From Blasia pusilla (Eukaryota), in assembly GCA_050084515.1 (NCBI GenBank), contig CM114271.1:12648001-12712000 (forward strand): a stretch of 64,000 nt of DNA. Reading direction: 5' to 3'. How positions within the stretch are numbered: position 1 is the first letter of the stretch; every line of letters begins with the position of its first letter. Shown here one piece after another: positions 19,806-50,500 of this stretch. A program made the translations under genes and the position numbers. A model generated the notes under the pieces. The model searched no databases. It was not told the DNA's origin and saw only the letters and a list, made by a program, of their open reading frames with translations.

Positions 19806-22800
19806 TGTCACATCTGAGTAGCCGATAGGCCGAGATCTATCGTGGATAGGGCGTAGGAGCCAGCGGACTATCTTGAGTGTAACTTTGTCCCATGGTGTTG
19901 GATGAGGTTGAGGATAGGTCCATTGTGTCAGGAACGTCGTTCCTGACAACTTTCATGTTGAGGTCTTTTACAGCCATGTGACTTGTTGACCAGGTCACCC
20001 GCCCCTGGTAACCTGTGCTCGCAGGTTACCAAGGGAAGGGCTATTTTTAGGGGAAGAGCCTTTTGGCTCTTCCCAACCCTATATAAGAGAGGAAGATGGC
20101 TTTCCTAAAGCCATCTTTCTCATGTTGGGCCGTTGGAGCATCTCCCTTGTATGTGTGTGAGCTAGGACTAGGGTGCTAGCGTCCGGATTCCTTGATAGCA
20201 CAGGGTGGACGAGGCTCAATATGCCGATGTAGATTGAGGAGTGGAGTTTTAGGCCGGGTGTGCCGTTTTTACTACTCTTTATTATTACATGAGAAAGATA
20301 TTAGGGGGCTGGTGGGAATTTGTTATTTGCAGGTAGGCAAGCGAGTTGCCTTGGTCGGGAGCCCCTGGAGACGTGTGTGTGACATTTGTGTCATTTTTCT
20401 ATTTGGAAGGCCGTGGGCGAAAGCGGTGTCCGTTTTTCTCAGATTTTGTTGGTGCGGATTGATGGGGGACAGCAGCAAGGTGTAGCGCAGGTTGTGTCGG
20501 CAGGAATAATGTCGTCTTATAGCGCGTGGAATGTCGGGAGTACCGAGGGAGAAGAGTTGGAGCTTGCAGGCGCCAGGGGGTTGTCAAGTAAAACGGCCGG
20601 TCTAGGGTTAGGGCGCGGCGGCGAGGGGCGACCGACGGGCGTGGACGGCCCCCCCTCTCATAATTTCTCTCCCCAAAAGTTGGGGAGGCCCATAGGGGTG
20701 CGGGCCAGGCCCTCCCCCCTGCATTTAGGGCCCAAGGGGCCCGCATAGGGCCGCGGACCCAAGTTTTCTCCAAGTCCCCCCCCCCCTCCAACGTGGTAGA
20801 CGGACCATAGTCGGTCGAGCAGTTGTAGCATACGTGGTTGGCAGGACGGACGAGGTTAGTCTGGGGAACGTGAGTTGAGATTTTCCGGATTTGAGTGGGA
20901 GCCGACCAAGGTGAGTTACGTTATATGCCCCGCGTGGGGATAGACAGAGGGGTTTGCGCGACATGACATTTTGGGGCGTGACAGGGCGTTGCGAGAGTTG
21001 ACGATGGAGGGGCAGTGTGCATGATGCCGACGGGTTGTCCGCATCTGTTGACGGGAGGATCAACATGTTGGTCGAGGGGAGTGTTATGTTGCGGAGATTG
21101 TCATATCATGTGGAGGAGTGCATGTTGACGGTGCAGCAGGTTAGAGGGCGTGATCAGGTTACCCATTCGAGTCCCTTTTCTCGCACTTGTCGTGTGTGAT
21201 TGAGAGTGCTGGGTATCGGGTAGTAGCTGGTGCTAGATGGGTGCAGTGATGGTGATGAGTGTAGATTCTTTTCATGTGTAGCATGTTGGTGGATATACGG
21301 CGGTTGCCGAGTAGGGGTCGCGTGTATGACCCGAAAGAGTGTCGCTAGGTTAGGTGAGTCACTTGGGAGGCTCATGGTGAGCCCGAGTGTTGAGCGTGCG
21401 TGAGGCCGGGTATGTCATCACGGGATTGACGTTAGCATAGGTGAGCTAGTGAGGCATGTGGGAGACTCTCGGTGAATCTGAGTGCTTGAGCGGGTGAGAC
21501 AGGGTTTGTCATCACGGGGTTCTTCCAGGGTTCGGAAGAACGGGGTAGTGCGAGCAGTGGTAGTGGTATGACACGGAGTGGAGTGAGATACCGAGGGGTT
21601 ACCAGTGAGGAGCTCCCTCGACATCCATCCGTGACTGGATCGTCATCACTGGACACTGGGTGTGGTGACGAGATCACCGACAGAGACAATAGTACTTGGC
21701 AGGAGATGGACGACAAGGGCCATCGGGGCATGCGTCGTTTCTCCGGTGCAGTGGGCACCATCGACTTAGATGATTTCATCCAGGAGTTCGACACATGGTG
21801 AGACTTCCAGGAGATACGGACCTCGACACGGTTCAACCCTTTCATGGCATGGAAGGGGTTGTTCCAACACTTGGAGGGTCCTCCGATGGATGACTACATG
21901 GAGTTTTGATCACTATATTCAGTAGAGATCGATGCCTGGAGGATGTATTGGGCTCTAGGGTATGTGTCCACTAGTGGTCGCGAGGCATATGATGGGATTG
22001 TGAGAGGAGAGAGACCCAGACCATCAGCCCGGAGACTAGATGGAGAGGAGGGCAATGAGACAGGCAATGTGGCAGAGACCTCTGGTGGTAGAGGGCCACC
22101 CAGCTTCAGCCCCACAGTGGAGTTCTTCCGACAGGTTGGGAAGAGCTACGTAGGCGTCATTGATCGACAAGTGAAGAGTCTATAGGATTTTCAGCGCCCG
22201 ATCGGGTGAGAGTCCGAGAGAGGCATTCACACGCATGAGGAGGCGATCATTGCTACGTTTGGAGTGACTCGAGGCGCAGTCACCCAAAGATTGGTCTGGG
22301 TTCTAGACCGGAACTACGGAGGAGAGTCCGAGATGCGGTCTTTGATTCACACAATGAAGCCCACATTGAAGGTGGTCTTTGAGTTGTCTGAGCGTATTGA
22401 GCTCAACATGAGTGAGGAGCAGGTAGTGACTGCTGGATTTTCTTGATAGTCGACGGGTCCACGAGCGACGGTGACCCCACAGGTGCCACAACGAGCACCA
22501 GTACCACGTGAGCGGGCCTGTGTGCCTAGAGGGCAGGGCGGGTACCGTGAGCCTATGAGGCAACGACCCGCACCTACATATGTTGCCCAGCAGGGACCGA
22601 TGTGGTCTTGTTGGACGTGTGGAAGGGCCCATAGGCAGAGAGACTGCCCACAGCATGAGAGAGGACCACCAACGCCTCCGATTGCTTAGGAGCCACAGAG
22701 GATGGCCCCACCACAGCACCAGTGTGACCATTGCCATAGATATGGTCACACTAGGGATAGATGTTTTGACCTTCGCCAAGGGGCACGTCCTGAGGTAGGC

Positions 22801-23458
22801 CGAGGGCCTGGGGGCGGTCGTCCTAGAGGAGGTCGGGGAGTTCTTCCTGGACGTGGTGGTAGAGGACCACCACCAGCCATAGGAGATGGAGCAGGAGCAC
22901 CAGAGCCGGCCCTTCTCTCACGCATCGATCAGTTGGAGCAGAGGATTACTGCCATGGCGATGATGCAGCTTAGGGAAGGCACGGAGCTGCGAGCAGCTAG
23001 TGTGACTCCAGTCTCTATCTCTTACCCTGACTCGGGTGAGGATCTCTCCAGTATGGGATTTATGTGTTATGCAGCCCAGGTTGAGGCAGCTGCAGTGGTG
23101 ACTCGGGGTGTTGTGAGAGGCACCGAGCCATCGAGAGGTGGAGTTGAGATTGACCCACCAGAGGGGACCGATGGGCGGCAGGCCAGGGTTCCATAGTCGT
23201 TCACATTGTCGGAGGCACTACGCACACCATCGATGGTGCCTCGACAACCAGCGGTGCCTATAGTTCAAGCACCTACGTCGACGTCACGAGGAGTTGGAGT
23301 GACAACTCCTATGCCGGCTCGAGTGGAGTTCTTCATGTATATGTATGAGTTGATTTTTGTACATGTGTGGATCGACCCGTGTGTGGGGAAGATCGGTGTT
23401 GTATGGTGTAGATGTGACGAGCGATGTATGTTGTGTAGCGATATGTATGCGCACGACA
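19806..23458 (+). mobile_element. Internally deleted relative of the split-direct-repeat retroelement (5' repeat, leader, gag, B-type 3' end)
   Basis: Starts TGTCAC and ends GATGTATGTTGTGTAGCGATATGTATGCGCACGACA, near-identical to the 3' terminus of the 25895-35849 element. Flanked by CATG (19802-05, 23459-62). Its gag is homologous to 33052-33597. Confidence 0.85.
21514..23330 (+). pseudogene. gag pseudogene with two CCHC zinc knuckles
   Basis: RRFSGAVGTIDLDDFIQEFDTW matches RRFLGAIGTIELYDFITEFRSW in the other element. Knuckles CWTCGRAHRQRDC (~22608) and CDHCHRYGHTRDRC (~22723). Multiple stops and frameshifts. Confidence 0.85.
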
Positions 23459-25894: not shown

Positions 25895-26024
25895 TGTCGT
25901 GCGCATACACATCGCTACACAACATACATCACTGTTATCGAACACACACACACAAACACACACGATCCCATGCTAACTCATGGCATCCATACACAAAGGC
26001 AAGAAATACCAAAATATCTCCAAT
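25895..26024 (-). repeat. Repeat B2 (3' terminus)
   Basis: ~130 bp, differs from 26539-26666 by about 7 substitutions and a 2-bp indel. Confidence 0.9.
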
Positions 26025-26536
26025 AAAGTAAGATCCAATCTCTCTCTATACCATCTCACACCATAGCTCTCAAAGGTGTGCACTCTCTCTCATGTCAAAC
26101 CAAACCCACTCTCCTAATGAGAGGCTTGGGTTACACTCACAAGGCAAGGGACCATAGCTCCGCCGCCTTATGCCAAGAGGTTCAACAAAGAGAAAACGAG
26201 CTCTCTAGGTCTCTCTCTTGGTGGTACACCCCCTTCCCTCTCCCAAGCCCTCTCGTCGGTAATCCATGCTCGCAGGTCATCTCCTTGGCTCTTGACGTGT
26301 TGTAGCGAGTCAAGGGCCACTTCTAAAAGTGGAAAGTCAACAATCCATTACATGGAAACTTACTTGAAATAGTAAGTTTCTATATATGGCTCCAAATGAG
26401 TCGAAACGAAGGGGGAACCTGCTCTCTTAGGTTTCTCGGGGCCTCAACAGGTCATCCTCGATCTCCTAGGTATGTCCTCCCCTACTCGTGCAGACGTTTT
26501 GCTAGATCCCACCGATCTATCCTAACAGTCGCGACA
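26025..26536 (-). repeat. Repeat A2
   Basis: Direct repeat of 35276-35849; element-sense start TGTCGCGACTGTTAGGATAGATCGG. Confidence 0.9.
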
Positions 26537-26538
26537 AC

Positions 26539-26666
26539 TGTCGTACGCATACACATTGCTACACAACATACATCGTTGTCATCGAACACACACACAAACA
26601 CACACGATCCCATGCTAACTCATGGCATCCATACACAGAGGCAAGAAGTACCAAAATATCTCCAAT
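26539..26666 (-). repeat. Repeat B1 (internal copy of the 3' terminus)
   Basis: Copy of 25895-26024, preceded in element sense by a short purine-rich tract AGGGGGCG and joined to A2 through 2 nt. Confidence 0.9.
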
Positions 26667-26857
26667 CGCCCCCTAGCTAGTGGTTAGGTCCCTCTAACTC
26701 TAGATAGCCATCTATCCCTACCTACCACGATATACATCTCTAAGACGCTAAGAGTAGAAAGGCCGGGCGCTCATATGACCTCATCGTTAGTCGCCTTCCT
26801 GTCATCCATGTCAGAGAAAAAGTAAGAATTGAAACCTACCTAGTATCTCCTCTATGT

Positions 26858-26992
26858 ATATTTGGGATACATCCATCGTCCCCGAGGAACCCTAGTGAGA
26901 GGTGGCGTCAGACATGCCATATGCCAACCTCTCGAACATCCATCACAGACTAGCATCGTGGCCGCACTAGGAGTAGAACCACACAACATACA
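26858..26992 (-). pseudogene. PHD finger at the C-terminal end of pol, downstream of the integrase core
   Basis: CMLC...MLVCDGCSRGWHMACLTPPLTRVPRGRWMYPKY fits C4HC3 PHD spacing, with the last two Cys read as Tyr. Confidence 0.85.
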
Positions 26993-27229
26993 ACGCAAGC
27001 CTGCAAGAGCTACTGCTGAGCTCGGATCTATTGTACCATCAATGTTAGGAAGGTGACATGGCGCACAATTACACACATGGTGCTTCCATACCATACCATC
27101 GCATCCTTCCAGCAAGAGAACACTGCATGGCAAAATGTCACGCAATCTCTGGATAGTGCGCCCTACAATCACATCCAACGTCATCGGTGCCATTTGCTGC
27201 AAGTAGACATAATCTCCCTAATGAAACCT

Positions 27230-27960
27230 CCGCATAGTTGGTCAATAACCACCACCCCGAATAGTCGCATGTCTCAACATATCCCGATGTTGCGCAATCG
27301 CCAAGTTCTCGAATGCCATGGGCATCACTCTCTGAAACAACTCAGCCCTCTGAGAACATGCTCGCATCCATACATCTGGGTCATCAAGGTCCAAAGACAC
27401 ACTCAAAGATCTCGACAAATGGCCGCAGGTAAATCAGGCTCTCGGCCATAAAGTAGCAAGTACGGTGAAAAAGACGCTAAGGATGTCTGCCTGCCAAATC
27501 TATATCCCATCACCAACCACGGCAACCGGAGGTCCCAATCTCCTAGGCGACCTCTGTGTAAGCCATACTTGCGTAGACCCCTCTTCACCATCTGCACAAC
27601 TCTCTCCGCTAATCCATCCGCCTCAGGATGATCTCGCGAAGTCGTGCGGTGGTCGATCAGTGCCTGATCAAACAAGGCCTGGAACTCATCGCAAAACTCG
27701 GTACCCTTGTCTGTCAACACCTCAGCCGGTGCGCCATAATGACTCAGTACTTTGTCAAGGAAGGCATAAGCTACTCCCTCTCTCGCTTTGTCAGGCAATG
27801 CAACCAACTCGATCCACTTTGAGAAGTGTTAGACCATCACTGACACATAATGACTATGACGCTCCGTCAAAGGCAAAGGTCTTGCAAAATCCAAACTCTA
27901 TCTATACCCTAAGCCCATGGTCGGTAATGGATGCAACTGTGGGGTCGGAGCATTGAACAA
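27230..27960 (-). pseudogene. DDE (rve) integrase core; N-terminal HHCC region not seen
   Basis: LHPLP..GLGYR*SLDFA (D1), HFSKWIELVALP, GAPAEVLTDKGTEF (D2), HPEADGLAERVVQMVK (E), SPYLLLYGREP. Confidence 0.9.
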
Positions 27961-28119
27961 TGCTCGGACACACTAGACCTCGCCATCGAAGTCTCCACAC
28001 TCTAGCTCTCCATAGCCAACATGCCTAAATAGGCTGACACGTGCCATCCTCGCACTAACTCCTCATCACTCTCTCCATGCCATCGAGCTCGAGTCGCATC
28101 TCCTTGACTCGAGCATGGG

Positions 28120-29400
28120 TTATGACTCAACCCATCTGCATCGTGGTTGAGCGTCCCACATCTATGTACCATCTGAAAATCAAATTCTTGCAACAACAAA
28201 GCCCATCTGGCAAGCTTCCATATAAGCTTGTCGGACTCCATCAACCACATATGTGGTCGATGATCAATGATGATGGTAAAGGGATTGCCAAATCAGTATC
28301 ACCTAAAATGCGCGACAACCCACCCTACAGCCAAACACCCATCCTCATACGAGTTGAACTTTGCCTCTGTAGCGTTGTTCGAGTTGTGAGCGTAAGCCAC
28401 CACGAACTCTCTACCCTCATCATCATGCTGGATGAGCACCGCTCTGGGCCCCAACATTCTCTAATCTGTGTGCAACTCGGAAGGACGCCCCCGGATCGGT
28501 CTCCTCAAGATGGGCGCAGATGTCAACTTGTCCTTGAGCAACTGAAATGCTCGCTCTTGCTTATCCCCCCAGTGCCACTCATGATCCACCTTTGTCAGCA
28601 AGGTCAAGGGCTTTGCAATCGAACTGAATCCCTTGACGTACCGCCGATAGAAGTTCGCCAATCCCATGAATGCACGAACACGGCTCACATCTGTAGGGCG
28701 TGGAATGCGTGAGATAGCCTCTACCTTTGTATGCTGAACACCAAGGCCCCTTGGGTATATCGTATGACCAAAGTACTCAATCTGGTCGTAGAAGAACTTG
28801 CACTTTCCTGGATGTAGCTTCAGCCCATGTAATTGCAATCGTTGAAACACCTCCTCTAGATGTCGCTCATGCTCCTCAATCGCGGCACTAAAGACTATGA
28901 TGTCATCAATATAACACCTAGAAAAATCCACACCAGCCAAGATCCTATCCATGACCCTTTTGATACTCAGTTGGGGCGTTCTTTAACCCAAATAGTAAGA
29001 ATCGCCACTCGTACAAACAATTATTCTCGTGAGGATTGATGCCCCAAAATGCCGTCTTCTGCATGTCCTCCAATCTACTAGGCAGCTCATGGTATCCGAC
29101 TCGCAAATCCAATGAACTCAAGACCTTTAGGTGACCGATCGCATCAAAGATCTCTTCAGGGGTGGGCATTGCATACCTATCGTCTGCCGATTGATAGGTT
29201 GGTAATCCCCACACAACGCCTATCCGTCGAGTTGCCATGCACATCCTTCTTGGCGGGCATGATAGTGGCAGATGCATACTCCCCATGCGACATCTCCACT
29301 AGTCCTGCTCCAACCAAGTCCTCGCTCCTACTCTGAATCACAGCCCTCTCCATATCACTGTACCTATAGGGTCATCGGAAGATTGGTGTATCACTCGACA
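28120..29400 (-). pseudogene. Ty3/Gypsy reverse transcriptase and RNase H
   Basis: YAMPTPEEIFD, LDLRVGYH, KTAF, FGLKNAP, YIDDIIVFS, LKLHPGKCKF, VRAFMGLANFYRRYV, ELHTD, KLARWALLLQEFDF...DADGLS. Frameshifted. Confidence 0.92.
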
Positions 29401-29889
29401 ACTCATTTTGGATCTCCGGTCCCTTTAGCGTACCAAAATCCTCCGTGCTAAACGCAAAGCAGCTCCTATAACTCCTGAGGAATTGATATATTCGGCGCCG
29501 CTCTCCTCCTATCAACTTAGGGCCCATATCTCGCTCCCAAGTCTCCATCGTGACTACGGTAGGACTCTTCCGCGTAGGTATCGATGGTTGCTATGGTGCA
29601 ATCCCGTCTCAAACAACAAGACTCGGCCGCTCTCTTGCAGTCAACTGCAAACTCTGAACTCCTCCACGTGGAGTGCTCGGAACCACGCTCAATGTTGTGG
29701 TTATCATCTCTTGACGTACCTGCAAAACATCCCAAGAAGTCGAGGGGTGTCTCTCCTGATCTCCCCTGGGGTGTAGAACTCCTCGGGTCTCACCCCCACC
29801 CACTTCCTCCATCGTCTCGGTAGGCATGGGGCTCACCAACGAAACCGCAGGGATCTGTCCTGGTCTCATCCGACACTGCTCAGCCACTC

Positions 29890-31030
29890 CCAAGCTGAAG
29901 ATCCATGTCAAGCAGTTCAGGTCCATCGCCTGACCCAAAACAAGACATCGTGATGCCTCTAACACTGACGGATTTTCCGTCACTACTGTGGGAAATCCCA
30001 TCTCTCCTCGGCGTTGGGCTACACCAACGTCTGAACCTGGTCATCTCAAACCAAGCCAGGACCGGCCTCCTTGTATGCATAGGAAGCGGGAAAACTCACA
30101 AACGTGGAAAAGGCTGCCCGCAGCCGACCTACCCTGTTGACCACAGTCAACGGCCGTTAATCATCGTGCCTCATTGCCTGTGATTGACGACCCGAATCCA
30201 TAATATAATCCACTAATAAGTGAGAGGGGCGTTCCACTCTTGCATACGCCCTCCGCAACATCTCGTGTGGTACCATGTTGGTACACCATAGACGCGGGCG
30301 ACGTGCAAGAGAACCCACACTCGCCGCATCCAAAGCTAATGTTGGGCCGATCCAGGACGCACCTGATGTGTCATCGTCACCATCCGTGACCTGGAATCCC
30401 CCAAGATCGGTACATTCTCCAGAATGTAAGCCGGAGAACGAGACTGTTGCTACTACAAATATCTTAAGACCCTCAGCATCTCCCAAAATAACCTGGATCG
30501 AGTGTCAGCCAACCCGCTACCTCGTCTAGCACTCGATTCGTCCTGACAAGGCCAATCGAGTGCATCTGATGTGCACTTCTCACCACACGGGACCTCGAAT
30601 CGCCCAAAATTGGCACATTCTCCAAAATTTATGCTGGAGAACGAGACTGATGCTCTTGTAAATGTCGCAAGATCCGCATCATCTCCCAAAACAACCTGGA
30701 TGAGTGTTAGCTAAACCGCTACCTCGAATAGCCCTCAATTAGCCTTGACATGACCAACCAGCAATGACCAAGTCTATGGTCCCTACCCGCTCCAAGTCCT
30801 GCGCCCCCAACAATGAAATGTCCCTCGATAGGGAACTCTGGTAACCCTGAATGGCGGACGCACACAACCAGTCGGGAAAACAGAGGCGTAATGGCGCCAC
30901 ATGGTGAAGTGAAGCGCACCTCGTAACATCATCAATCTCCACATACACGTACTGATGCATGCGCACTCGAGCATGCAAAACAACAGCTAACCCAGTGCTG
31001 ATCCCTCCAAAAAGATCCAACACCCAAATA
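29890..31030 (-). pseudogene. C5 cytosine DNA methyltransferase domain (DNMT3-like) embedded in pol between protease and RT
   Basis: Motifs in order: I VLDLFGGISTG; II YVEID; III RDI; IV DLVIAGWSCQG, with a second copy WPCQD; VI YILENV; VIII LDAASVGSLARRPRLWCTN; IX PNAEER..MGFP; X SRCLVLGQAMDLNCLTWIF. Contains stops, frameshifts and an internal duplication. Confidence 0.88.
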
Positions 31031-31089
31031 TCCTTCTCTAAACCCTAAATGAGCTAAGGCGCCCATCACCTGACTGCCATCTTGGTTTG

Positions 31090-31440
31090 TAGGATGCTCA
31101 CTCCTCCCAGTAATCCAGGGGAAACCCCATCGGTTTTAACACTACTCCACTAACCAAGACGTCGTAGGACTCTACATTAGTCACTATCGCCTTGGCTCGC
31201 ACCACAGACTCATCTGTAGGTATGTCCCGAGCGAATCCTCACCACGACCTCTTGTCGGGTGATATACTGTATGATACTCACTCACCCAAAGATGTGTGTA
31301 TCCGGAATGGACAACGCTCCACATCGGTTCTTGTCAAGCCCAATCCTCTGAATGACGCTTTCCCCAACATCAGGGGTTGCGCTCCTGAATCCAACAAGAC
31401 GCGTTGCGGACTAAAAGCTCTACCTCCGAGACTCACCAAC
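31090..31440 (-). pseudogene. Retropepsin aspartic protease
   Basis: Minus strand reads PQRVLLDSGAQPLMLG (active-site DSG near 31383-31391) and later ESYDVLVSG. Confidence 0.8.
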
Positions 31441-31899
31441 TAGAAGACCGCTCCTCAATTATCCAGCAACACAACACCAGGAGAAGCCATGGCACGCTCT
31501 ATCGCGGGTTTAGCGGACATCTCCGCCATCCTAGCAGCCGCAACTTGCCATGAATCTAACGTGGACGGCCGAAGCATCTGCTCCAAGGGCATGTCCATCA
31601 CCTCCTCTGCAATCACCTCTGAACGTGATGCAAGAACTCCAACTCCGCACTCACATAGTGAAGCGGCTAGTTGAAAAGCCTCGGCGCGCGTACCCCCCAA
31701 CGTCATCACATCGAAAGCAGAAAATAAAGGAGTGCGATACACAATGGTGTGCTCGACACATGCCCCTCTTGAGCATCAGTAATAGGAGTTGTCGCACTCG
31801 CTTCTCCCATTGCCCTCCGTGCCGGCACAACAACAACATCACCAACTCTCCACGAACTTTGATGAGGATCCATCAATGGGGTCCTCATCATTGTTGATC

Positions 31900-33597
31900 C
31901 CATGAAAGACTAAGGAAGCCTAGTTTTTTTCTTGGTCTCTCCTCATTGTGGATCCCACTCTACAACTGCTCCACGCATCACAACTGCAAAGGCCTCTATT
32001 TGGGCAACCTCGCACATCCAACCACGATCCTCCATGTCTCTGGCTGCTCCATATGATGTCGATGCCACGGATCGGGCATCCGGTAACCTCAATGCCATAG
32101 CGGCAATCTCCTCCTGTAACTGTTGTATCTGAGCAACCATCCCAACCCCATGCCCTGCGTCTCCCTTGACTCGTCTAGGTGGTGTGACTCTTCCTCCTCC
32201 ACGGGCAGCTCCACCATCCTGTCGAAAAACTCTAGCTCCTCGTCCCCCAACTGGACCACCTGGTGCACAACCTCTAGCCCCACCTGGACCGGTTACTTGC
32301 TCTAGTGCCCTCTCTGGCCCTCGGTCCGGTCGTTACTCCGGATGTAAATTGAAACACCAAGCGCGTGTATGACCATACCTCTGAAAATACTCACACTAAT
32401 AACCTCTTGGTGCATCACCATCTCCTCCTCCATGCTGAGGCACACGTCCATGACCATGACGAGTGCAATCACTCTGATGATGGGCTCCACCACATGACCA
32501 ACAAGTAATAGTAGGCGGCTGCTACTGAGCCGCATATGAAGGCGCAGGTCTCTATGGCATGGCCTTCCGATAGCCTCCCTGAGCTTGTGGTGCCACAATT
32601 GACCTATCTCGGAGTCCATGTTGTTGCACAGGTGGTGTAGACAATCGTGACTGATGTCGCCCATAACCCATGGTGGTTACAATCTCATCCGCCATATTGC
32701 GCTCAATGTTCTTGGAGGTCCTTAAAAAATCTCTCAAAGTAGGGGAGATGTTCATAAGAAGCACCCCCTCCGCCACCCATGTCCGCACGGTCCGGTTCAA
32801 CACCGCGTACCATGACTGGATAGCCTGAGCCTCCGTCACCCCCTGAGTGATGTTGATCAATCCACACAAGCGAGTCTAAGCCTCACGCAAACCCTCACCC
32901 GAGCGCCTCTGGAAGTTGTGGATGCTCCGAAACTTCTCCGTCCGTACTCGCTGGTAGCTCGCCCTCAACTCATCAAAAAACTCAACCACGGGGTTGAACC
33001 TAGGACGAACCCGACTAGATGGTGCAACTGCTCCAATGCAAGTGACATCTCCTAAAACTTCACTAGTGGAAGAGGAAGTATCCTCTCATGCCTCCTCCTC
33101 CTCATCGGGAACGCTTCCGTCCATGACACATAGTGTGGGTCATAATAGTGTCGCCATGCCTCAATCTCGTGGGCATATCTGTGGGAGAACTCATGGTAAT
33201 TGTCAATGGGCATTCCCTCTAAATGTTGGAACATACCATTCCATGCTGTATACTGGTTGAACTCTCTAGAGTTCTTAGCCCGCTGTGAGTCACACCAACT
33301 TCTAAACTCCGTAATGAAGTCGTATAGCTCTATAGTGCCTATAGCACCCAAAAACCTACGTGGTCCTCTAGCTCGGTTGTCCATCTCGTACGCCCAATTG
33401 GTAGGACCACTCAATGTGTACGGTGGATCACTAACACACTCCTCTACACACTCACTCTTGTCTAAAGATAACAGAGAGGGACATCGAGGTGGTCTCTCAC
33501 TTGGAGACCCTCGAAACCTCACACCACTCCACGTAAACCCTCCATAGCTACTCTTAGGTCTACTACCTCGCCTCTCAAAATCCTGAAAGGACGCCAT
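31900..33597 (-). pseudogene. gag pseudogene with two CCHC knuckles
   Basis: ORFs 33052-33597 and 32552-32869; knuckles CWSCGGAHHQSDC (~32465-32502) and degenerate CEYFQRYGHTRAWC (~32360-32395). Homologous to 21514-23330. Confidence 0.85.
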
Positions 33598-34494
33598 GAT
33601 GGCCCTCGTGCCCCTCTCACACGATCACTCTCAATCTTGCGAGTAATCCCTCAATCACTCAAACTAAACATGCAACACACAATCTACACTCTCTCATTGA
33701 GACGTGTGTTGTGCGGCAAGAAGCAGCGTGATGCGGCAAATCACTAATCTATCGTCTCATCGACAAACCATCCTCAATTTTGGACATCCCACACAGGTCT
33801 ATGTCCCCTAATCCCTTAAATCATCGATGCTCCTAGCATCAACACAAAACCCAATATCCCAAATAACTTCCCAATATTCGGAAATCCCTCACACGTGCAA
33901 GGTAAAAGACTAGAATGGGTAACCTGACAATAATGTCGATGTTGCTCCTCGACAATTGAATATCTTGACCCCAACTCGGTCATGAAGACAACTCCTCCAA
34001 TCAGCAAGTCGTACTCCTCTCGTACTGACGTTGCTGAACCTTCTCGATGTGCGGTGCAGGTCGAGCGGTCCGGTGCGGCACTGGCGGCACGGAACGGCTA
34101 CAAAAAACATGGCACTCGGGAATGGGGTGTGGCACTCGACGGCAGACCCTCCTCAATCAGCAATTCACGCGCTCCGCTCCTTAGTGAAGAAGCGGTTCTG
34201 CGATCGAGACGGTGCGGTGCGGCCACGAGCGGCACGGCGCAGCAATCGGCGGTGCGTTGCAGCTATGGGCATTACGGCACGGTACTCTATCATCGTTGAG
34301 CTACTACCAATCACAACATAGCAGCATCAAATCAAAACTCAAACACCATATTTGGAGGTCATCTGCCATCATTGGTTGATGAAGAAATTGCGATGACGGC
34401 CAAAACAAAGTACGTGGTGGTGACGCAAGTCAGAGAATCAACGAACGTCGTGGAAGACCCTCCACTTCGTAATGGCAACAATGACAACCAAAGG

Positions 34495-34700
34495 GTGGAC
34501 AACTGACAGTGGACCGTTGACGGTAACGATTGACCGTTGATGGTGACGGCAGACCGGTGATGATGACGGTTGACGGTTGACGGTTGACCATCAATGGTGA
34601 CGGCGGACCGGTGATGATGACGGTGGACCATTGACGGTGACGGTTGACGGGTAACCATCAAGGTGACGGTTGATTGTCGACGACGGACCGTTGAACGTGA
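34495..34700. repeat. Degenerate tandem repeat (TGACGG/TTGACGG units) in the element's 5' leader
   Basis: Repeated TGACGGTTGACGGTGACGG...GACCGGTGATGATGA blocks. Confidence 0.7.
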
Positions 34701-35275
34701 CTATGATGGCGACGGCCGCCGCCGCGGTGGCGGCTAGTTTAGGGTTTGAAAATTTTAACCCTAAAAATCACCTAGCAATGGCAGTTTTGCAACATTGACC
34801 ATCACTTTTTGCTCGCAACTCTAAATTGCTCACTTTTTGTTGCACAGCTTCACAATCTACAACAACGTCAAAAAATATTTAGAATCAAACATTCTAGTAA
34901 GAACTGATGGGGACTATCGTAAATCCCAATGTCTCTTTCTCCTACACAAAATTTGACAGCGCTTTCGCGCTGATTTCTCCCAACAAAAATATAAATTTGT
35001 AAAAATACAAATCAGCAAGCTACATGGTGCTCTCGAGAGCATCGGCATGGGGCAACCGCCCCCATAATCAATCCCTATCAGAAATTGAACAGCGCTTCCG
35101 CGTGCCACTCTTCCACACAAAAAATCGATAAATGCAAAGAACAATCAAAGCAGCCCTTTCTCCGGTGAGCACTCCCATGAGCCGCTGAACGGGGAATACA
35201 ATCCCTTACCTGCAAAAACAACGAGTGACCAACGAGCTCCCTATGAAGCTCTCTCGCTCTCTCATTCTCTCTTTG

Positions 35276-35849
<574 letters not shown>

Positions 35850-40000: not shown

Positions 40001-41185
40001 CACAAACTCAAAATCAAATCATATGGCTTAGTTTTATTATAGGGCTCTCTAGGTACTGGCAAAACTTTCTTTATCAATTTTAAGTGTAAGTTTGGGAAAT
40101 CCTTAGGGTTACATGTCCTACTTGCAGCCACAATAGGAATTGCAGACGTTAGATTGCACCCAAAAGCCACTATTGTTCACCCATCTTTTTGCATTCCAAT
40201 ACGCGGGGAAGTTCCATACTTGCACGCAACCTCGGACGCTAGTATGAAACTTATGGAATGTAACGTAGTTATTATAGTTGAATATTCAATATTAACACCT
40301 CATATACTTCAAATTATACCCATGAGGCTAAATGAAATAACAACTTCTTCTACACGTGACCCATTTGGTGGACGTCTCGTAGTTTTGGCCGACAACATGT
40401 GTCACTTGCCACATGTTTGCAAGCATAAAACAGATAGCACATGCTCATCTTGTCACCTACTCTCTTTGCAACTCATCTGTTTGGCAGATAAATATGAGCT
40501 TCTAACATCTATGTGTCATTCTAGTGATATTCACTACTTAAACTTTATGAATACAGTCAAAAGTTGACTTCCTTATTTTCAAGAAATAGATTATTGCCTT
40601 GGCATATGCTTTGTCTTTAAGAATGATGCAATTGACTTCCTCATGGAAGACATAACTGTTATTTGTTCCCATCGCGAGGATGTGAAACTTTTCACCGATG
40701 CTCCTCATATTCATGAATTAGAAACATGGATACTTGACCTTGATTTTCATTAGTTACTTTTCTTTGCTATTGGTTAATGTTAGATGACATGCTGACATCT
40801 AACATTAACCTCAAGATTCAGGCCGCAAACGACTTTGAAAGTGTCATAAGAAATTTACATTATAGAGATACTATTTTTATATCTATATCTGTTAGAATTA
40901 CTACATCTACACGAATTGTATGAGTAACTAGGATCAATTTTCCACACTCGAGTATGGTTCTGACTTTATATATTACAAAAAATCATTCCTACTAATACTT
41001 GGTTATGCCATGACAAGTCATAAAAGCCAAGGCCTTACAGTAAAAGGAAAGTGCTTACTTGTTATTAAGTCTACTTTTGCACATGGTCTAGTTTATATTA
41101 TGCTTTTGTGTGCCCAATTTGGAGATCAGATCAGAATTCTTGGAAGTTTGCCTCCGTCTGACTTTTTCACGTTTGGACAATCTTG
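37100..41185 (+). mobile_element. Helitron RepHel pseudogene (Rep plus Pif1-family helicase)
   Basis: ETCIFPFLLG...SFLDY (~38590); Rep motif 1 KWGMPHFFLTLTYNE (~38925); Walker A GSLGTGKT (~40042); IIVEYSIL; DPFGGRLVVLADNMCHLPHV; FLLILGYAMTSHKSQGLT...FAHGLVYIML (~40985-41105). Many stops. Confidence 0.85.
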
Positions 41186-47500: not shown

Positions 47501-50500
47501 AGAGAGGCGGGCGCAAGAGCCTCCACGTCTCGGAAAGTACAAGTGCGTCTCCTATGGTTTAGCTCACAAATAAAGCTCACATGCCTTTGTCTTCTCTTGT
47601 TCACTTTTTGGGACTATTCTGTAGGTTGTCGTAAGATCACCTACTTACTATTCATGAGTGGTGTGTACCAGGTTCACTCCAGAGCCTGTTCAGGTGCTCT
47701 TGACAGAGGAGGTGACTGGTTCCCTGAGACAAATAAAGGTGAGTAATTCCCCACTGGTTTTGTTTAGATGCAAGTATTGACAATTCTCTGAATTCACCCA
47801 CCCAAATTCTGTTATTTTGAAGCATTGAATGTTGTGGTTCTCCTCTTGGTGGTATTCCAATCAGTTTCTGTGCTTTGTGAACAGGGCTGCTACACTCTTG
47901 CAAGGGAGAGATTTAAAAGTTTTCAGCGACGGGGTATTCTGGAACCACGTGTGAAAGTCAGGTGAGATACAGATCCTGACAAAGCAGGATATGAAGCAAA
48001 TACACAGCTGGTGTTGGAGAGACTGTACTTTTAAGTAGTGCCTGTCATAGCCTTGCGACCATAGACCCCGTGCCCTGGTTGGGCGGTGCTTGAGACTGGG
48101 ATGGGTGTAAAGAGAGGAAGATGTGAGGAAGGTACCATATGAGAGGAGGGAGACACTCTCATATAGTGTGAGTGCTGACCAAACAACGTGTTTGTGCGGA
48201 GCTTCCAAGTGTCAACCAAGAAACTCTTCACCACAGTGAGCGCAGCGGTGCGGGGGGCGGCTGCTGTGTGCGTCTCACCGTGGGGATCGATCGAGAGCGC
48301 GCTCGCTTTCTTCATACACGAACGTCCTGACTGACAGAAGATTTTGGATCGGGGTCGAGATCTAGATACCGAAAGACAGAGAAGAGAGAAGAGAGAGACG
48401 CGAAGAATTAGGTGAAAGGGAAAAAAGTTTTCGAAGAGGGAGAGAAAGAGAGAGAGTAGACCTAAGTGGTGGAGGTGGAGGCGAGAGGGGAGAATGAAGG
48501 GGTAAGAGAGTGGAGTCGAGGAGGAAGAGGAGGAGGAGGAGGAACCATCTACTTTACCTGATTGGGATCCCCAATAGACATTACTTACCAGTGCAGCAGA
48601 TTTGGGCAATGAATCAAGGCTACTGAATGTGGTGAACAACTCTGGTGTTACCAGCTTAGCAATATCAGCATATGGTCTTGCTCTGCGTGTTGTGAGTTTT
48701 GTGCAGGAGACCAAGTAGTGACTAGAGGTTTCATCCCCATCGTCACACAAGGCGCAAGAGATTAGTTGTGTTCCCATCCTACTTTTCTTACGCGTCAAGG
48801 AGATGGCCCCTGTTAACTTGAACTTCAGCCGGGTTCCCAAGCTAGGGGTTCCCCACGAATAGTTCTTCAGTTCTGCCTTTTCAGGATACACCGTCAAGAG
48901 AGACTCTACTCATTAAGTAGTGCCTGTCGTAGCCTTGCGACCATAGACCCCGCGCCTTGGTTGGACAGTGCTTGAGACTGGGATGGGTGTAGAGAGAGAA
49001 GCAAGTGAAGAAGGTACTATATGAGAGGAGGGAGACACTCTCATATAGTGTGAGTGCTGACCAAACAACGTGTTTGTGCGGAGCTTCCAAGTGTCAACCA
49101 AGAAACTCTTCACCACACCATCTACTTTACCTGATTGGGATCCCCAGTAGACATTACTTACCAGTGCAGCAGATTTGGGCAATGCGAGAGAGAGACTGTA
49201 CTCATTAGGTAGTGCTTGTCGTAGCCCCTTGCGACCATAGACCCCGCGCCCTGGTTGGACGGTGCTTGAGACTGGGATGGGTGTAGAGAGAGAAGCAAGT
49301 GAAGAAGGTACCATATGAGAGGAGGGAGGCACTCTCATTTAGTGTGAGTGCTGACCGAACAATGTGTTTGTGCGGAGCTTCCAAGTGTCAACCATGAAAC
49401 TCTTCACCACACCATCTACTTTACCTGATTGGGATCCCCAATAGACATTATTTACCAGTGCAGCAGCTTTGGGCAATGAATCAAGGCTACTGAATGTGTT
49501 GAACAATTCTGGTGCTACCAGCTTAGCAATATCAGCATATGCTCTTGCTCTGTGAGTTGTGAATTTTGCGCAGGAGACCAAGTAATGACTAGAGGTTTCA
49601 TCCCCATCGTCACACACGGCGCAAGAGTTTAGTTGTGTTCCCATCCTGCATTTGTTATGGTTCAAGGGGATTGCTCCTGTTCTGAACTTGAACTTGAGCC
49701 GGGTTCCCAAGCAAGGGGTTCCCCGCAAATAGTTCTTCAGTTCTGCCTTCTCGGGATATACCGTCAAGAGAGAGAGGTCAGACATTTTCATGGTTTCCTC
49801 CATGCTGTTCTGCTGTGAGCGTTTGCCCTCTGCTTTGGTTATGGTATCCACGAATGCTTTCTCATTTCGCTCCCACAGTTCAGGCCCTGCTGGGAGCTTG
49901 GAAGCTTGCACAATCTCTTGAACCTTTTTCGTCCAAGATTTGGCCTGCTTTACGGGTCTTCTTTGGGTCCAGGTTTTCCCCATCACCTCTTTAGGATAGC
50001 GATGGGAGTCCATTGTCTCCAGCTGCCTCCGCCATTTCAACTTGGCAATGTCACGTCTATCCTCCAAGGGTTCCACACCTAGTTCTGATCTCACACCAAC
50101 TCGGAGTGTTCGTGATGAGGTTGACATCATACCCCGAAACGCCTTCAGCTGCACAGCTTCAAGCCTATCCCTTTTTTTGGTGTTGGCATCCCACACTGCT
50201 GCCCCGTATTCCAGCGAGGGACAAACGGTATGCAAAATGACAGAGCGCTTCACTTCTGATGTGATATCCCGGCAGTGTAGGAATCTGGACAGACCGTTCA
50301 CCTTCTTGTGGCCTTTCTCAGTAGTCTTCTTAATGTGTACATCCCACATGCAATCTTCCGAGAATTCTATGCCCAGATAGGTGTATGTAGCCACACGGGG
50401 GATCTCTTGTTCGCCCCAGTACCACTGTTGGTCTTGGTCCTCCTCCTTGCCATTGAAAATCATCACACCGCACCTCAGTACATTTGCCTCCATGCCCCAC

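What the first reader, a model, noticed from the sequence alone, without database searches (positions are those of the whole stretch)
29890..31030. DNMT3-like cytosine methyltransferase built into the retrotransposon polyprotein
Seen: C5-MTase motifs I, II, III, IV (PC), VI (ENV), VIII, IX and X in correct order, same strand, between protease and RT. Wording and spacing resemble DNMT3 (VLSLFDGI, DLVIGGSPC, DA..VSAAHRARYFWGN, ERVFGFP, RQRLLGRSW). Established: retrotransposon-encoded DNMTs have been reported in dinoflagellates and in Gypsy elements of the charophyte Klebsormidium, but are not a standard feature of land-plant LTR elements. Inference: a land-plant lineage of elements that could methylate their own cDNA or target chromatin. 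This copy is dead.
Basis: partly seen in the sequence, partly recalled or inferred. Interest (0 to 1): 0.88.

Follow-up and report, generated by a model that had tools for sequence, protein, structure and literature searches.

The report
Dead retrotransposon carrying a DNMT3-like methyltransferase
This is a decayed copy of a jumping gene whose polyprotein includes its own DNMT3-type DNA cytosine methyltransferase, a kind of element first described in a green alga and here shown to be abundant and transcribed in bryophyte land plants as well.

Summary
On the minus strand, about 31029-29837, lies a C5 cytosine methyltransferase (MT) domain between protease and reverse transcriptase of a Ty3/Gypsy-type element spanning about 35849-25895. 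It is read in three frames, holds several stops, a private 203-nt tandem duplication and a linker deletion, so this copy is dead.

The domain is not a one-off capture. Proteins of Marchantia, Calypogeia, Sphagnum, Closterium and Klebsormidium carry the same MT in the same place. So do 72 of 80 metagenome loci. Whole-genome reads labelled as the same species (coded label) show roughly a hundred or more sister copies that cover the MT region. RNA reads from sister copies are strand-biased.

A profile search of solved structures and a fold search both rank DNMT3A/B/C first, then DRM, then M.HhaI. In a tree the window copy falls in a well-supported clade with the bryophyte sequences. That clade lies inside a larger clade holding the Klebsormidium proteins, which I take to be KnitGypsy-Dnmt3 (de Mendoza 2018). 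The unusual A-coding-B-A-B repeat layout is shared too.

Verdict: a new (land-plant) member of a known kind, Gypsy-DNMT3. Enzymatic activity and purpose remain unproven. Interest is moderate.

The parts
35276..35849 (-). Repeat A1, the 5' terminal repeat of the element. It begins TGTCA at about 35849 and holds a (CT)n microsatellite at about 35470-35560.
   Evidence: Direct repeats with 26024-26536 at 85-93% identity; boundaries read.
31865..33369 (-). gag, degraded and read in two frames.
   Evidence: tblastn to Marchantia P0009 residues 9-490, 36-56% identity. No Pfam hit on the two window ORFs tried.
31041..31742 (-). Aspartic protease region (LLDSGAQPLMLG).
   Evidence: tblastn to P0009 residues 524-755, 45% identity. 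Weak Asp_protease_2 hit, E 0.032, below the cut-off.
29837..31029 (-). DNMT3-like C5 cytosine methyltransferase domain, broken: three frames, in-frame stops, motif IV read SCQ plus a stop in the first copy.
   Evidence: tblastn to P0009 residues 881-1243. PF00145 20.5 bits on one fragment, cut-off 22. Family profile against the PDB.
30359..30701 (-). Tandem duplication of 203 nt (30359-30498 and 30562-30701) covering motifs IV to VI. It is private to this copy or to few copies.
   Evidence: 79% identity, spacing 203. DNA reads from sister copies skip 202 nt at 30535-30738 (10 reads) and 30551-30754 (8 reads).
28461..29554 (-). Reverse transcriptase.
   Evidence: PF00078 E 5.5e-14; tblastn to P0008.
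28002..28460 (-). RNase H.
   Evidence: PF17917 E 6.3e-8 and 1.3e-5.
27403..27828 (-). Integrase core (DDE, rve).
   Evidence: PF00665 E 8.6e-8, 32.8 bits against cut-off 32.6. 786 and 890 DNA reads have loose ends at 27969/27971, which suggests an indel here relative to sister copies.
26852..27217 (-). C-terminal PHD finger after the integrase, in place of a chromodomain.
   Evidence: PF00628 E 4.3e-9. Nearest solved PHD fingers are PHF12, KDM5B, CHD4 and DPF3. A PHD hit is present in 22 of 23 relatives with at least 900 nt after the INT.
26539..26666 (-). Repeat B1, directly preceded by a G-run (PPT-like) and directly followed by A2.
   Evidence: 93% identical to 25895-26024; boundaries.
26024..26536 (-). 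Repeat A2.
25895..26024 (-). Repeat B2, the 3' end of the element, ending ...ACGACA.
   Evidence: A candidate 4-bp target duplication, CATG, stands on both flanks.

Best explanation
The stretch is the methyltransferase domain of a dead, old copy of a Gypsy-DNMT3 retrotransposon. This is a Ty3/Gypsy-type element with the order gag, protease, DNMT3-like C5 cytosine methyltransferase, RT, RNase H, DDE integrase, PHD finger, bounded by split direct repeats (A, coding, B, A, B).

Shown:
- The domain order.
- Homology to the same domain in the same place in bryophyte (Marchantia, Calypogeia, Sphagnum) and streptophyte-alga (Closterium, Klebsormidium) proteins.
- DNMT3 as the nearest solved family, by sequence profile and by predicted fold.
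- Conservation of the catalytic motifs, and purifying selection on the domain in deep comparisons.
- Many sister copies in whole-genome reads labelled as the same species, and strand-biased RNA from sister copies.

Inferred mechanism (about 0.35 that it is right in outline): in intact family members the MT is translated inside Gag-Pol and is either released by the protease or stays fused upstream of RT. It then deposits 5mC on the element's own new DNA or around its insertion site. The integrase-linked PHD finger steers insertion towards chromatin with unmodified histone H3 tails. The element thus enters the genome already marked in a way that limits harm to the host or escapes other silencing routes.

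The window copy itself does nothing.
For: Anatomy.

Relatives by protein search:
- 30 hits among 603 candidates scored (17 Marchantia, 3 Calypogeia, 3 Closterium, 7 unnamed); 23 of the 30 carry PF00145.
- 82 hits with the family profile, among them Sphagnum fallax P0132 (PR-MT-RT-INT) and Klebsormidium P0123 (PR-MT-RT-RH-INT).
- P0053 is Klebsormidium GAQ93235.1, with gag, PR and MT.

Metagenome loci: 287 of 393 pattern-matched stretches encode a relative, and 80 were kept. In 72 of the 80 the MT has PR or linker upstream and/or RT downstream (52 have both).

Single open frames across domain borders: P0009 gag-PR-MT, 1278 aa; P0008 PR-MT-RT-RH, 1190 aa; the L049 ORF MT-RT-RH, 847 aa.

DNMT3 affinity:
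- PDB profile search: DNMT3A 2.3e-25, DNMT3B/3C 1e-23 to 1e-18, DRM 1e-15 to 4e-13, M.HhaI 1e-9, DNMT2 1e-6. No DNMT1 or chromomethylase among the 59 matches.
- AlphaFold model pLDDT 80.6, pTM 0.84. The top Foldseek hits listed are all DNMT3A/B/C, E 1.6e-17 to about 1e-15, TM (target) about 0.8.
- The first non-transposon hits in the 5.8-billion-protein search are fish DNMT3B, 1e-18 to 1e-14.

Motifs invariant or nearly so across 10 sequences at 33-80% identity to the first: F18, G20, C105, Q106, E148, N149, V150, R188, R190, E286, R287.

Selection: in deep pairs (pS > 0.6), pN/pS for the MT is 0.54 against 0.95 and 1.20 in the two shifted frames, lower in 906 of 906 pairs. RT gives 0.47 and RH 0.45. 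Pairs of open copies give omega 0.12-0.17.

Tree: the window copy sits in a 99%-supported clade of 14 with Marchantia, Calypogeia and Sphagnum. All 33 MT-before-RT rows form one 96% clade that includes both Klebsormidium proteins.

Repeat layout A-coding-B-A-B is seen in the window and in 4 relatives (L047, L049, L060, L067) of the 18 other loci examined. It matches the legend for KnitGypsy-Dnmt3.

Reads:
- 30144 WGS reads were laid at 90% or more. Only 130 are 99% or more alike and 27862 are 90-95% alike.
- Summed depth in the six MT bins is 145, 233, 32, 197, 277 and 384.
- The three RNA runs laid 1379-1577 reads each, with first mates about 10 to 100 times more often on the + strand.
Against: Function:
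- No activity is shown for any member of this clade. The Klebsormidium domain gave no methylation in yeast; the authors call this inconclusive because human DNMT3B also failed.
- One branch of relatives has ECQ instead of PCQ in motif IV.

State of the copies:
- Most metagenome copies are dead. Only 7 of the 55 loci with a near-full single-piece MT match have the MT open; the median is 3 in-frame stops.

Selection:
- Among recent pairs (pS < 0.15) the MT shows no more constraint than shifted frames (0.52 against 0.46 and 0.61). The same holds for RT and RH.
- My first NG86 medians (MT 0.48) cannot stand alone, because a shifted-frame control gave 0.52.
- Within clades the third-to-second codon position ratio is lower for the MT (1.27-1.33) than for RT (1.5-1.6) or RH (1.75-1.82).

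Classification:
- The placement in DNMT3 rests on rankings against solved structures, and the tree was rooted on fish DNMT3B only. I had no plant DNMT3, DRM, DNMT1 or bacterial sequences for it.

Expression:
- RNA depth over the MT bins is low (0.2-15) compared with the INT/PHD bins (40-87).
- Nearly all RNA reads are only 90-95% alike, so they come from other copies.
Confidence: 0.85

Rival explanations
1. A host DNMT3 gene fragment was captured once and passively by this one copy. Alternatively, the transposon landed beside or inside a host methyltransferase gene, so the association is accidental.
For: The window copy is broken and its PF00145 score is below the cut-off. Transposons do pick up host fragments.
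Against: The same domain stands in the same position in 72 of 80 metagenome loci. It also does so in named proteins of five genera. It is in frame with PR and RT in single ORFs. Reads from about a hundred or more sister copies in WGS reads labelled as the same species cover the MT region. Deep-pair pN/pS is lower than both shifted-frame controls in 906 of 906 pairs.
Confidence: 0.02
2. The element-borne domain is a true family feature but is no longer a DNA 5mC writer. It may methylate RNA, for example the element's own transcript or a tRNA primer. Or it may serve as a non-catalytic DNA- or chromatin-binding module, as DNMT3L does.
For: The Klebsormidium domain gave no DNA methylation in yeast. 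The same paper raises RNA methylation as a possibility for its LINE-borne DNMTs. Motif IV varies (ECQ) in one branch. Constraint on the MT within clades is weaker than on RT or RH.
Against: Motifs I, IV (PCQ in 7 of 10 aligned sequences), VI (ENV) and VIII (RxR) are conserved from Klebsormidium to bryophytes; these motifs serve catalysis (from general knowledge of C5 methyltransferases, not tested here). The nearest solved relatives are DNA enzymes (DNMT3A/B/C), with DNMT2, the tRNA enzyme, far behind at 1e-6. The DIRS-borne DNMT3 domains of Symbiodinium did methylate CG in yeast.
Confidence: 0.2
3. The domain descends from a bacterial or viral C5 methyltransferase rather than from eukaryotic DNMT3, and its likeness to DNMT3 is convergent or reflects shared ancestry at a deeper level.
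For: Motif IV reads PCQ, as in M.HhaI-type and many other enzymes (seen in the alignments), not the PCN seen in the DNMT3A rows. No PWWP or ADD domain accompanies it. Pfam PF00145 matches only the motif IV-VI stretch of most relatives.
Against: The profile E-value to DNMT3A (2e-25) is about 16 orders of magnitude better than to M.HhaI (1e-9). The DNMT3A alignment spans chain residues 6-278 of 287, that is motifs I to X. The fold search lists DNMT3A/B/C as its top hits. De Mendoza 2018 place the Klebsormidium copies as Dnmt3-related by maximum-likelihood tree (passage read).
Confidence: 0.07

Closest known systems
KnitGypsy-Dnmt3 of Klebsormidium nitens (de Mendoza et al. 2018, PMC5890265; passages and section 10 read)
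   Same: A Gypsy-type Pol with a DNMT3-related, unpermuted methyltransferase inside the polyprotein. The repeat layout is A-coding-B-A-B. Two K. nitens proteins share the MT-before-RT order: P0053 (GAQ93235.1) has gag-PR-MT and P0123 (KFL_009030040) has PR-MT-RT-RH-INT. Both fall in the same 96% clade as the window copy.
   Different: MT identity is only 35-43%. The present family is from bryophytes and, in WGS reads labelled as the same species, is present in roughly a hundred or more copies; the paper stresses few copies in K. nitens. The paper's main text does not mention a PHD finger (0 occurrences). I assume, but could not confirm, that P0053 and P0123 are the paper's elements, because its supplements are closed.
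Animal DNMT3A/3B/3C catalytic domain (solved structures such as 6f57, 2qrv, 6u8p)
   Same: Best sequence-profile and fold match. Motifs I-X stand in the same order. The target-recognition region is short. The ENV and RxR-WxxN motifs are shared.
   Different: About 20% identity. Motif IV is PCQ, not PCN. There is an insertion of about 40 residues before motif IX, modelled at low confidence (residues 231-267 of the model). There are no PWWP or ADD domains; instead the domain is embedded in a retrotransposon Pol whose integrase carries a PHD finger.
Plant DRM methyltransferases (4onj, 7l4c)
   Same: Second-best solved family (E 1e-15 to 4e-13).
   Different: Only profile positions 9-138 (motifs I-V) align as the best stretch, to the C-terminal part of the DRM chains. 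That DRM has a permuted motif order is recalled and is consistent with this. The window domain is not permuted.
SymbioDIRS-Dnmt3 of dinoflagellates, and DIRS/Ngaro-type elements
   Same: A retrotransposon-borne DNMT3-like domain and the A-coding-B-A-B repeat layout.
   Different: Those elements use a tyrosine recombinase. This one has a DDE integrase (rve, H2C2 in relatives), TG...CA ends and a possible 4-bp target duplication.
Chromoviruses (Ty3/Gypsy elements with an integrase chromodomain)
   Same: A histone-reader module at the C-terminus of the integrase. One unnamed relative (P0125) has both a PHD finger and a chromodomain.

Membership tests
C5 cytosine methyltransferase (Pfam PF00145) | Score at or above the Pfam gathering cut-off (22 bits). 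| tested here: inconclusive
   Window fragments: the best is 20.5 bits, E 3.6e-4, and 7 of 8 fragments gave no PF00145 hit. Intact relatives pass: P0009 35.6, P0008 35.1, P0053 58.4, P0047 45.5, P0061 46.1 bits. Some relatives fall below: P0017 none, the L080 ORF 19.2.
C5 cytosine methyltransferase (Pfam PF00145) | Catalytic motifs I (FxGxG), IV (PC), VI (ENV) and VIII (RxR), plus IX and X, in order. | tested here: met
   All are present in order in the window read in three frames. In the window, the first copy of motif IV is SCQ plus a stop and the second copy is PCQ. They are invariant or nearly so in the family alignment.
DNMT3 subfamily | Closest to DNMT3 among the methyltransferase classes. 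| tested here: met
   Ranking against solved structures by profile and by fold. The first non-transposon hits are fish DNMT3B. This is a ranking, not a phylogeny with all classes.
DNMT3 subfamily | Phylogenetic nesting inside DNMT3, apart from DRM, DNMT1, CMT, DNMT5 and bacterial enzymes. | not tested
   No sequences of plant DNMT3, DRM, DNMT1 or bacterial enzymes were at hand for a tree; only fish DNMT3B was used as the root. Reported for the Klebsormidium copies by de Mendoza 2018 (passage).
DNMT3 subfamily | Accompanying reader domains (PWWP and ADD in animals; DUF3444 in plant DNMT3 according to Yaari 2019, passage read). | tested here: not met
   Pfam finds none of these in the relatives. 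The domain sits in a Pol polyprotein.
Gypsy-DNMT3 retrotransposons (KnitGypsy-Dnmt3 type) | The DNMT3-like domain lies inside the Pol ORF of a Gypsy-type element. | tested here: met
   Window order PR-MT-RT-RH-INT. Single ORFs span the borders in relatives.
Gypsy-DNMT3 retrotransposons (KnitGypsy-Dnmt3 type) | Repeat layout A-coding-B-A-B. | tested here: met
   Window: A1 35849-35276, B1 26666-26539, A2 26536-26024, B2 26024-25895. The same layout is seen in L047, L049, L060 and L067. Of the other 14 loci examined, most do not reach both ends.
Gypsy-DNMT3 retrotransposons (KnitGypsy-Dnmt3 type) | MT domain homologous to that of Klebsormidium nitens elements. | tested here: met
   P0053 and P0123 (both named K. 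nitens) fall in one 96% clade with the window copy. blastp of the P0009 domain against P0053 gives E 2.5e-54.
Ty3/Gypsy LTR retrotransposon | Pol order PR-RT-RH-INT with a DDE integrase. | tested here: met
   The MT is an insertion between PR and RT.
Ty3/Gypsy LTR retrotransposon | Two identical full LTRs, a PBS, a PPT and a target-site duplication. | tested here: inconclusive
   The repeats are split (A ... B-A-B), not two full LTRs. A G-run stands directly before B1 in 5 of 5 copies examined. The ends are TG...CA. A 4-bp flank match was found in 2 of 5 copies (window CATG, L049 GGTC). No PBS was identified.
DIRS/Ngaro-type retrotransposon | Tyrosine recombinase instead of a DDE integrase. 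| tested here: not met
   Pfam finds rve and Integrase_H2C2, and no phage-integrase family, in the window ORFs and the long relatives scanned.

The most novel reading that the evidence does not exclude
A single ancient lineage of PHD-integrase Gypsy elements with split direct repeats has carried a DNMT3-type methyltransferase through green-plant evolution. In chlorophytes the MT lies between RNase H and integrase. It moved once to between protease and RT in streptophytes. The lineage is still transcribed, and possibly active, in bryophytes, where its hundred or more copies make element-encoded DNMT3 a real, unrecognised contributor to de novo methylation of new insertions or of the host genome.
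Probability: 0.2. Interest if true: 0.75.

Novelty: new member of a known kind. Interest (0 to 1): 0.45.

Why it matters
Retrotransposons that carry the enzyme normally used to silence them are a paradox. So far they are documented in print for dinoflagellates and one streptophyte alga.

Here the same lineage is shown to be common in liverworts and a moss, including the model plant Marchantia. It is multi-copy and transcribed in reads labelled as the window's species, and it has relatives with another domain order in chlorophytes. This makes the question of what the enzyme does for the element testable in genetically tractable land plants.

It also warns annotators that many 'DNA (cytosine-5)-methyltransferase' gene models in bryophyte genomes are transposon polyproteins rather than host genes.

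The window copy itself has no function.

Tried and rejected
- The single job against protein representatives, sent with a 115-aa window fragment, gave only 26 short unnamed hits. It was useful mainly as a source of diverged relatives.
- NG86 dN/dS medians (MT 0.477, RT 0.390, RH 0.329, PR 0.665) looked like purifying selection. A frame-shift control on disjoint pairs gave 0.52 for the MT, so I do not rest on them. I replaced them with stratified pN/pS and two shifted-frame controls and with codon-position counts.
- No host gene was found in the window to place the organism. Of 10 long ORFs sent to Pfam, 3 matched transposon-type families (RVT_1, zf-RVT, PIF1) and 7 matched nothing. Organism names of the sequencing runs are coded.
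- No RNA holder was listed by the index search. RNA evidence comes only from laying raw reads.
- CpG observed/expected for the element (0.80) is not lower than its surroundings (0.45-0.72), so it says nothing clear about methylation history.
- A target-site duplication could be read in only 2 of 5 copies.
- A tree with plant DNMT3, DRM, DNMT1 and bacterial enzymes was not made, for lack of such sequences. The third protein search was not spent on this, because transposon fragments would crowd the list.
- Print searches for this family in land plants found no statement about Marchantia, liverwort or moss copies in the texts I could read (passages read).
Full report
**What is in the window**

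Translating the minus strand of 26700-35300 in three frames, with Pfam scans, shows a degraded Ty3/Gypsy-type element. In element order it reads:
- gag, about 33369-31865
- an aspartic protease region, 31742-31041
- the methyltransferase-like stretch, 31029 to about 29837
- reverse transcriptase, 29554-28461 (PF00078, E 5.5e-14)
- RNase H, 28460-28002
- a DDE integrase core, 27828-27403 (PF00665, E 8.6e-8)
- a PHD finger, 27217-26852 (PF00628, E 4.3e-9)

Taken as isolated fragments the MT is weak in Pfam. One of eight fragments hits PF00145, at 20.5 bits against a cut-off of 22. Against the Marchantia polyprotein P0009 the window aligns over residues 881-1243 in five pieces, at 51-61% identity and E 1e-48, 4e-42 and 3e-22. 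This is far beyond chance.

**State of this copy**

The copy is dead.
- The MT is read in three frames with several in-frame stops.
- Motif IV reads SCQ followed by a stop.
- A 203-nt tandem duplication (30359-30498 and 30562-30701, 79% identity) repeats motifs IV to VI and shifts the frame.
- The roughly 125-residue linker that relatives have between protease and MT is missing.

Whole-genome reads labelled as the same species (coded label) agree. Ten and eight DNA reads skip 202 nt at 30535-30738 and 30551-30754, and 749 reads run on into unlike sequence at 31048. Both lesions are therefore private to this copy or to few copies. The terminal repeats are 85-93% identical, so the insertion is old.

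**The domain is a family feature**

A search with the 101-aa motif I-IV fragment found 30 longer proteins among 603 candidates: 17 from Marchantia polymorpha, 3 from Calypogeia fissa, 3 from Closterium and 7 unnamed. Of these, 23 carry PF00145. P0009 is gag-PR-MT in one 1278-aa model, and P0008 is PR-MT-RT-RNase H in one 1190-aa model.

A profile of ten MT domains (A1) found 82 longer proteins. Among them:
- Sphagnum fallax P0132: PR-MT-RT-INT, 51% identity
- Klebsormidium nitens P0123: PR-MT-RT-RH-INT
- Chromochloris zofingiensis P0119: RH-MT-G-patch-INT-PHD
- as the first non-transposon hits, fish DNMT3B at E 1e-18 to 1e-14

P0053, found earlier, is Klebsormidium GAQ93235.1, with gag, PR and MT.

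In metagenome contigs, 287 of 393 pattern-matched stretches encode a relative, and 80 loci were kept.
- 72 have the MT with protease or linker upstream and/or RT downstream (52 have both).
- 4 have it between RNase H and integrase.
- 4 show the MT alone or otherwise arranged.
- A PHD hit follows the integrase in 22 of the 23 loci that reach far enough.

In WGS reads labelled as the window's species, 30144 reads were laid on 26700-33700 at 90% likeness or more. Only 130 are 99% or more alike, and 27862 are 90-95% alike. Summed depth over the six MT bins is 145, 233, 32, 197, 277 and 384, against roughly 3 expected for a single copy (a rough figure). Sister copies with the MT therefore number on the order of a hundred.

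Three RNA runs laid 1379-1577 reads each, nearly all 90-95% alike. First mates lie 10 to 100 times more often on the + strand. In the usual stranded library this means sense transcripts of the minus-strand element. RNA depth over the MT bins is 0.2-15, against 40-87 over the INT/PHD bins.

**What kind of methyltransferase**

The A1 profile against all solved structures ranks as follows:
- DNMT3A first, E 2.3e-25, aligned over chain residues 6-278 of 287
- DNMT3B/3C, 1e-23 to 1e-18
- DRM, 1e-15 to 4e-13, best stretch over profile positions 9-138 only
- M.HhaI and M.HaeIII, 1e-9 to 1e-7
- DNMT2, 1e-6
- no DNMT1 or chromomethylase among the 59 matches

An AlphaFold model of the Marchantia domain (pLDDT 80.6, pTM 0.84) finds DNMT3A/B/C as the top listed Foldseek hits, at E 1.6e-17 to about 1e-15 and TM about 0.8 on the target.

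Differences from DNMT3:
- PCQ instead of PCN in motif IV
- an insertion of about 40 residues before motif IX, modelled poorly
- no PWWP, ADD or DUF3444 domain

I could not make the full-class tree for lack of plant DNMT3, DRM, DNMT1 and bacterial sequences.

**Relation to the known Klebsormidium elements**

De Mendoza et al. 2018 (PMC5890265; passages and section 10 read) describe KnitGypsy-Dnmt3. It is an intronless Dnmt3-related domain in the Pol ORF of a Gypsy element, whose repeats have the DIRS-like layout A-coding-B-A-B.

The window element has exactly that layout: A1 35849-35276, coding region, B1 26666-26539, A2 26536-26024, B2 26024-25895. So do L047, L049, L060 and L067, out of the 18 other loci I examined, most of which do not reach both ends. 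In all five copies:
- A begins TGTCA
- B ends ACGACA
- a G-run stands directly before B1

A 4-bp flank match is seen in two of the five.

In a tree rooted on fish DNMT3B, all 33 rows with the MT before RT, including both Klebsormidium proteins, Closterium, Sphagnum, Marchantia, Calypogeia and the window, form one clade (SH-aLRT 96). This clade is nested in a grade of rows with the MT after RNase H, which includes the chlorophytes. One change of position suffices on the tree. The window copy sits in a 99-supported clade of 14 with the bryophyte sequences (quick search, no bootstrap, several long branches).

The window element is thus a land-plant member of the published Gypsy-DNMT3 kind, not an independent invention.

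**Selection**

My first NG86 medians cannot be trusted alone, because a shifted-frame control gave 0.52. Stratified pN/pS with two shifted-frame controls gives:

| Pairs | MT | Shifted frames | True frame lower than both | RT / RH |
|---|---|---|---|---|
| Recent (pS < 0.15) | 0.52 | 0.46 / 0.61 | no constraint shown | RT and RH also show none, as expected for decaying dead copies |
| Intermediate | 0.48 | 0.58 / 0.78 | 153 of 267 | RT 0.39, RH 0.35 |
| Deep (pS > 0.6) | 0.54 | 0.95 / 1.20 | 906 of 906 | RT 0.47, RH 0.45 |

Pairs are not independent. Pairs of open copies give omega 0.16-0.17 (L004 and L006 against L018) and 0.12 (L074 against L080), but 0.97 for the recent pair L004-L006. Within clades the third-to-second codon position ratio is lower for the MT (1.27-1.33) than for RT or RH.

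Only 7 of the 55 near-full metagenome MT domains are open. The catalytic residues are invariant or nearly so across sequences down to 33% identity.

Taken together, the MT was kept by selection along the active lineages, somewhat less tightly than RT.

**Mechanism**

Shown: a DNMT3-type catalytic domain with intact motifs is translated as part of Gag-Pol in intact relatives, next to a DDE integrase that carries a PHD finger.

Inferred: it writes 5mC on the element's new DNA or near the insertion site. The PHD finger steers insertion. Its nearest solved relatives are PHF12, KDM5A/B PHD1, CHD4, DPF3, KAT6A, AIRE, PHF21A and UHRF1, several of which I recall as readers of unmodified H3 tails.

Against the inference: the Klebsormidium domain gave no methylation in yeast. 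The authors call this inconclusive because human DNMT3B also failed, whereas the dinoflagellate DIRS-borne DNMT3 domains methylated CG. I put about 0.35 on the self-methylation outline and about 0.2 on an RNA-directed or non-catalytic role.

**Novelty**

Seven full-text searches and passages of six papers gave no statement that liverwort or moss genomes hold such elements.
- De Mendoza 2018 does not mention Marchantia or liverworts (0 occurrences).
- Later papers speak of 'streptophytes (Gypsy-DNMT3)' with reference to that work.
- Supplementary trees that I cannot open may already include bryophyte sequences.

I rate this a new member of a known kind. Useful extras are the land-plant distribution, the second domain order reaching chlorophytes, the PHD finger, and the DDE integrase combined with split repeats.

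Noticed in passing
window 21724-23319 (+): A second, related gag (42% identity to Marchantia P0009 residues 9-516) lies on the other strand in a GC-rich block (20-24 kb). It has no protease, MT or RT after it, so it is a truncated relative of the same element lineage.
   Followed up: partly
window 49339-51063 (-), with 48031-48909 (-): An open 574-aa frame with RVT_1 (E 2.7e-22) and a weak zf-RVT match (E 7.5e-4, below the cut-off): a LINE-type retrotransposon that looks younger than the Gypsy copy.
   Followed up: no
window 40043-40567 (+): A PIF1-like helicase fragment (PF05970, E 1.5e-11), probably part of a Helitron-type element. The window as a whole looks transposon-rich; I found no host gene.
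   Followed up: no
L070, L074, L079, L080; proteins P0051, P0059, P0099-P0117, P0119, P0125: A second architecture of the same MT clade: RT-RNase H-MT-integrase-PHD. Two metagenome ORFs of about 2010 aa are fully open (L070, L080). It occurs in named chlorophytes (Chromochloris P0119, with a G-patch domain; Monoraphidium P0133). One unnamed protein (P0125) carries both a PHD finger and a chromodomain.
   Followed up: partly
window 25895-26666 and 35276-35849; L047, L049, L060, L067: Split direct repeats (A ... B-A-B) occur in an element that has a DDE integrase, TG...CA ends and a G-run directly before B1. The B|A junction (…ACGACA-GT-TGTC…) looks like the joined ends of a two-LTR circle. How such a layout is copied by a Gypsy-type element is unexplained.
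   Followed up: partly
window 26700-33700, reads of run X16: Where this copy differs from sister-copy reads, it far more often has A or T where they have G or C (A>G 155 and T>C 186 places) than the reverse (G>A 54 and C>T 60). This is the pattern expected if this dead copy decayed mainly by C-to-T change, as methylated DNA does.
   Followed up: no
L049, L070, L080, L006 coding regions: Relatives with open frames are strongly CpG-depleted (observed/expected 0.31-0.59), more than the dead window copy (0.80).
   Followed up: no
metagenome loci L001-L030 and protein P0132: The largest metagenome clade of copies is nearest to a named Sphagnum fallax protein (branch 0.04 in the tree). In the MT tree Sphagnum sits among liverwort sequences rather than outside them, but the supports there are weak (88-93).
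   Followed up: no
window 35470-35560: A (CT)n microsatellite lies inside repeat A1 and is absent from A2.
   Followed up: no
window 27969-27971: 786 and 890 DNA reads, and 28-64 reads in each RNA run, have loose ends on either side of this point between RNase H and integrase. This copy probably lacks a segment there that sister copies have, likely the integrase zinc-binding region.
   Followed up: no
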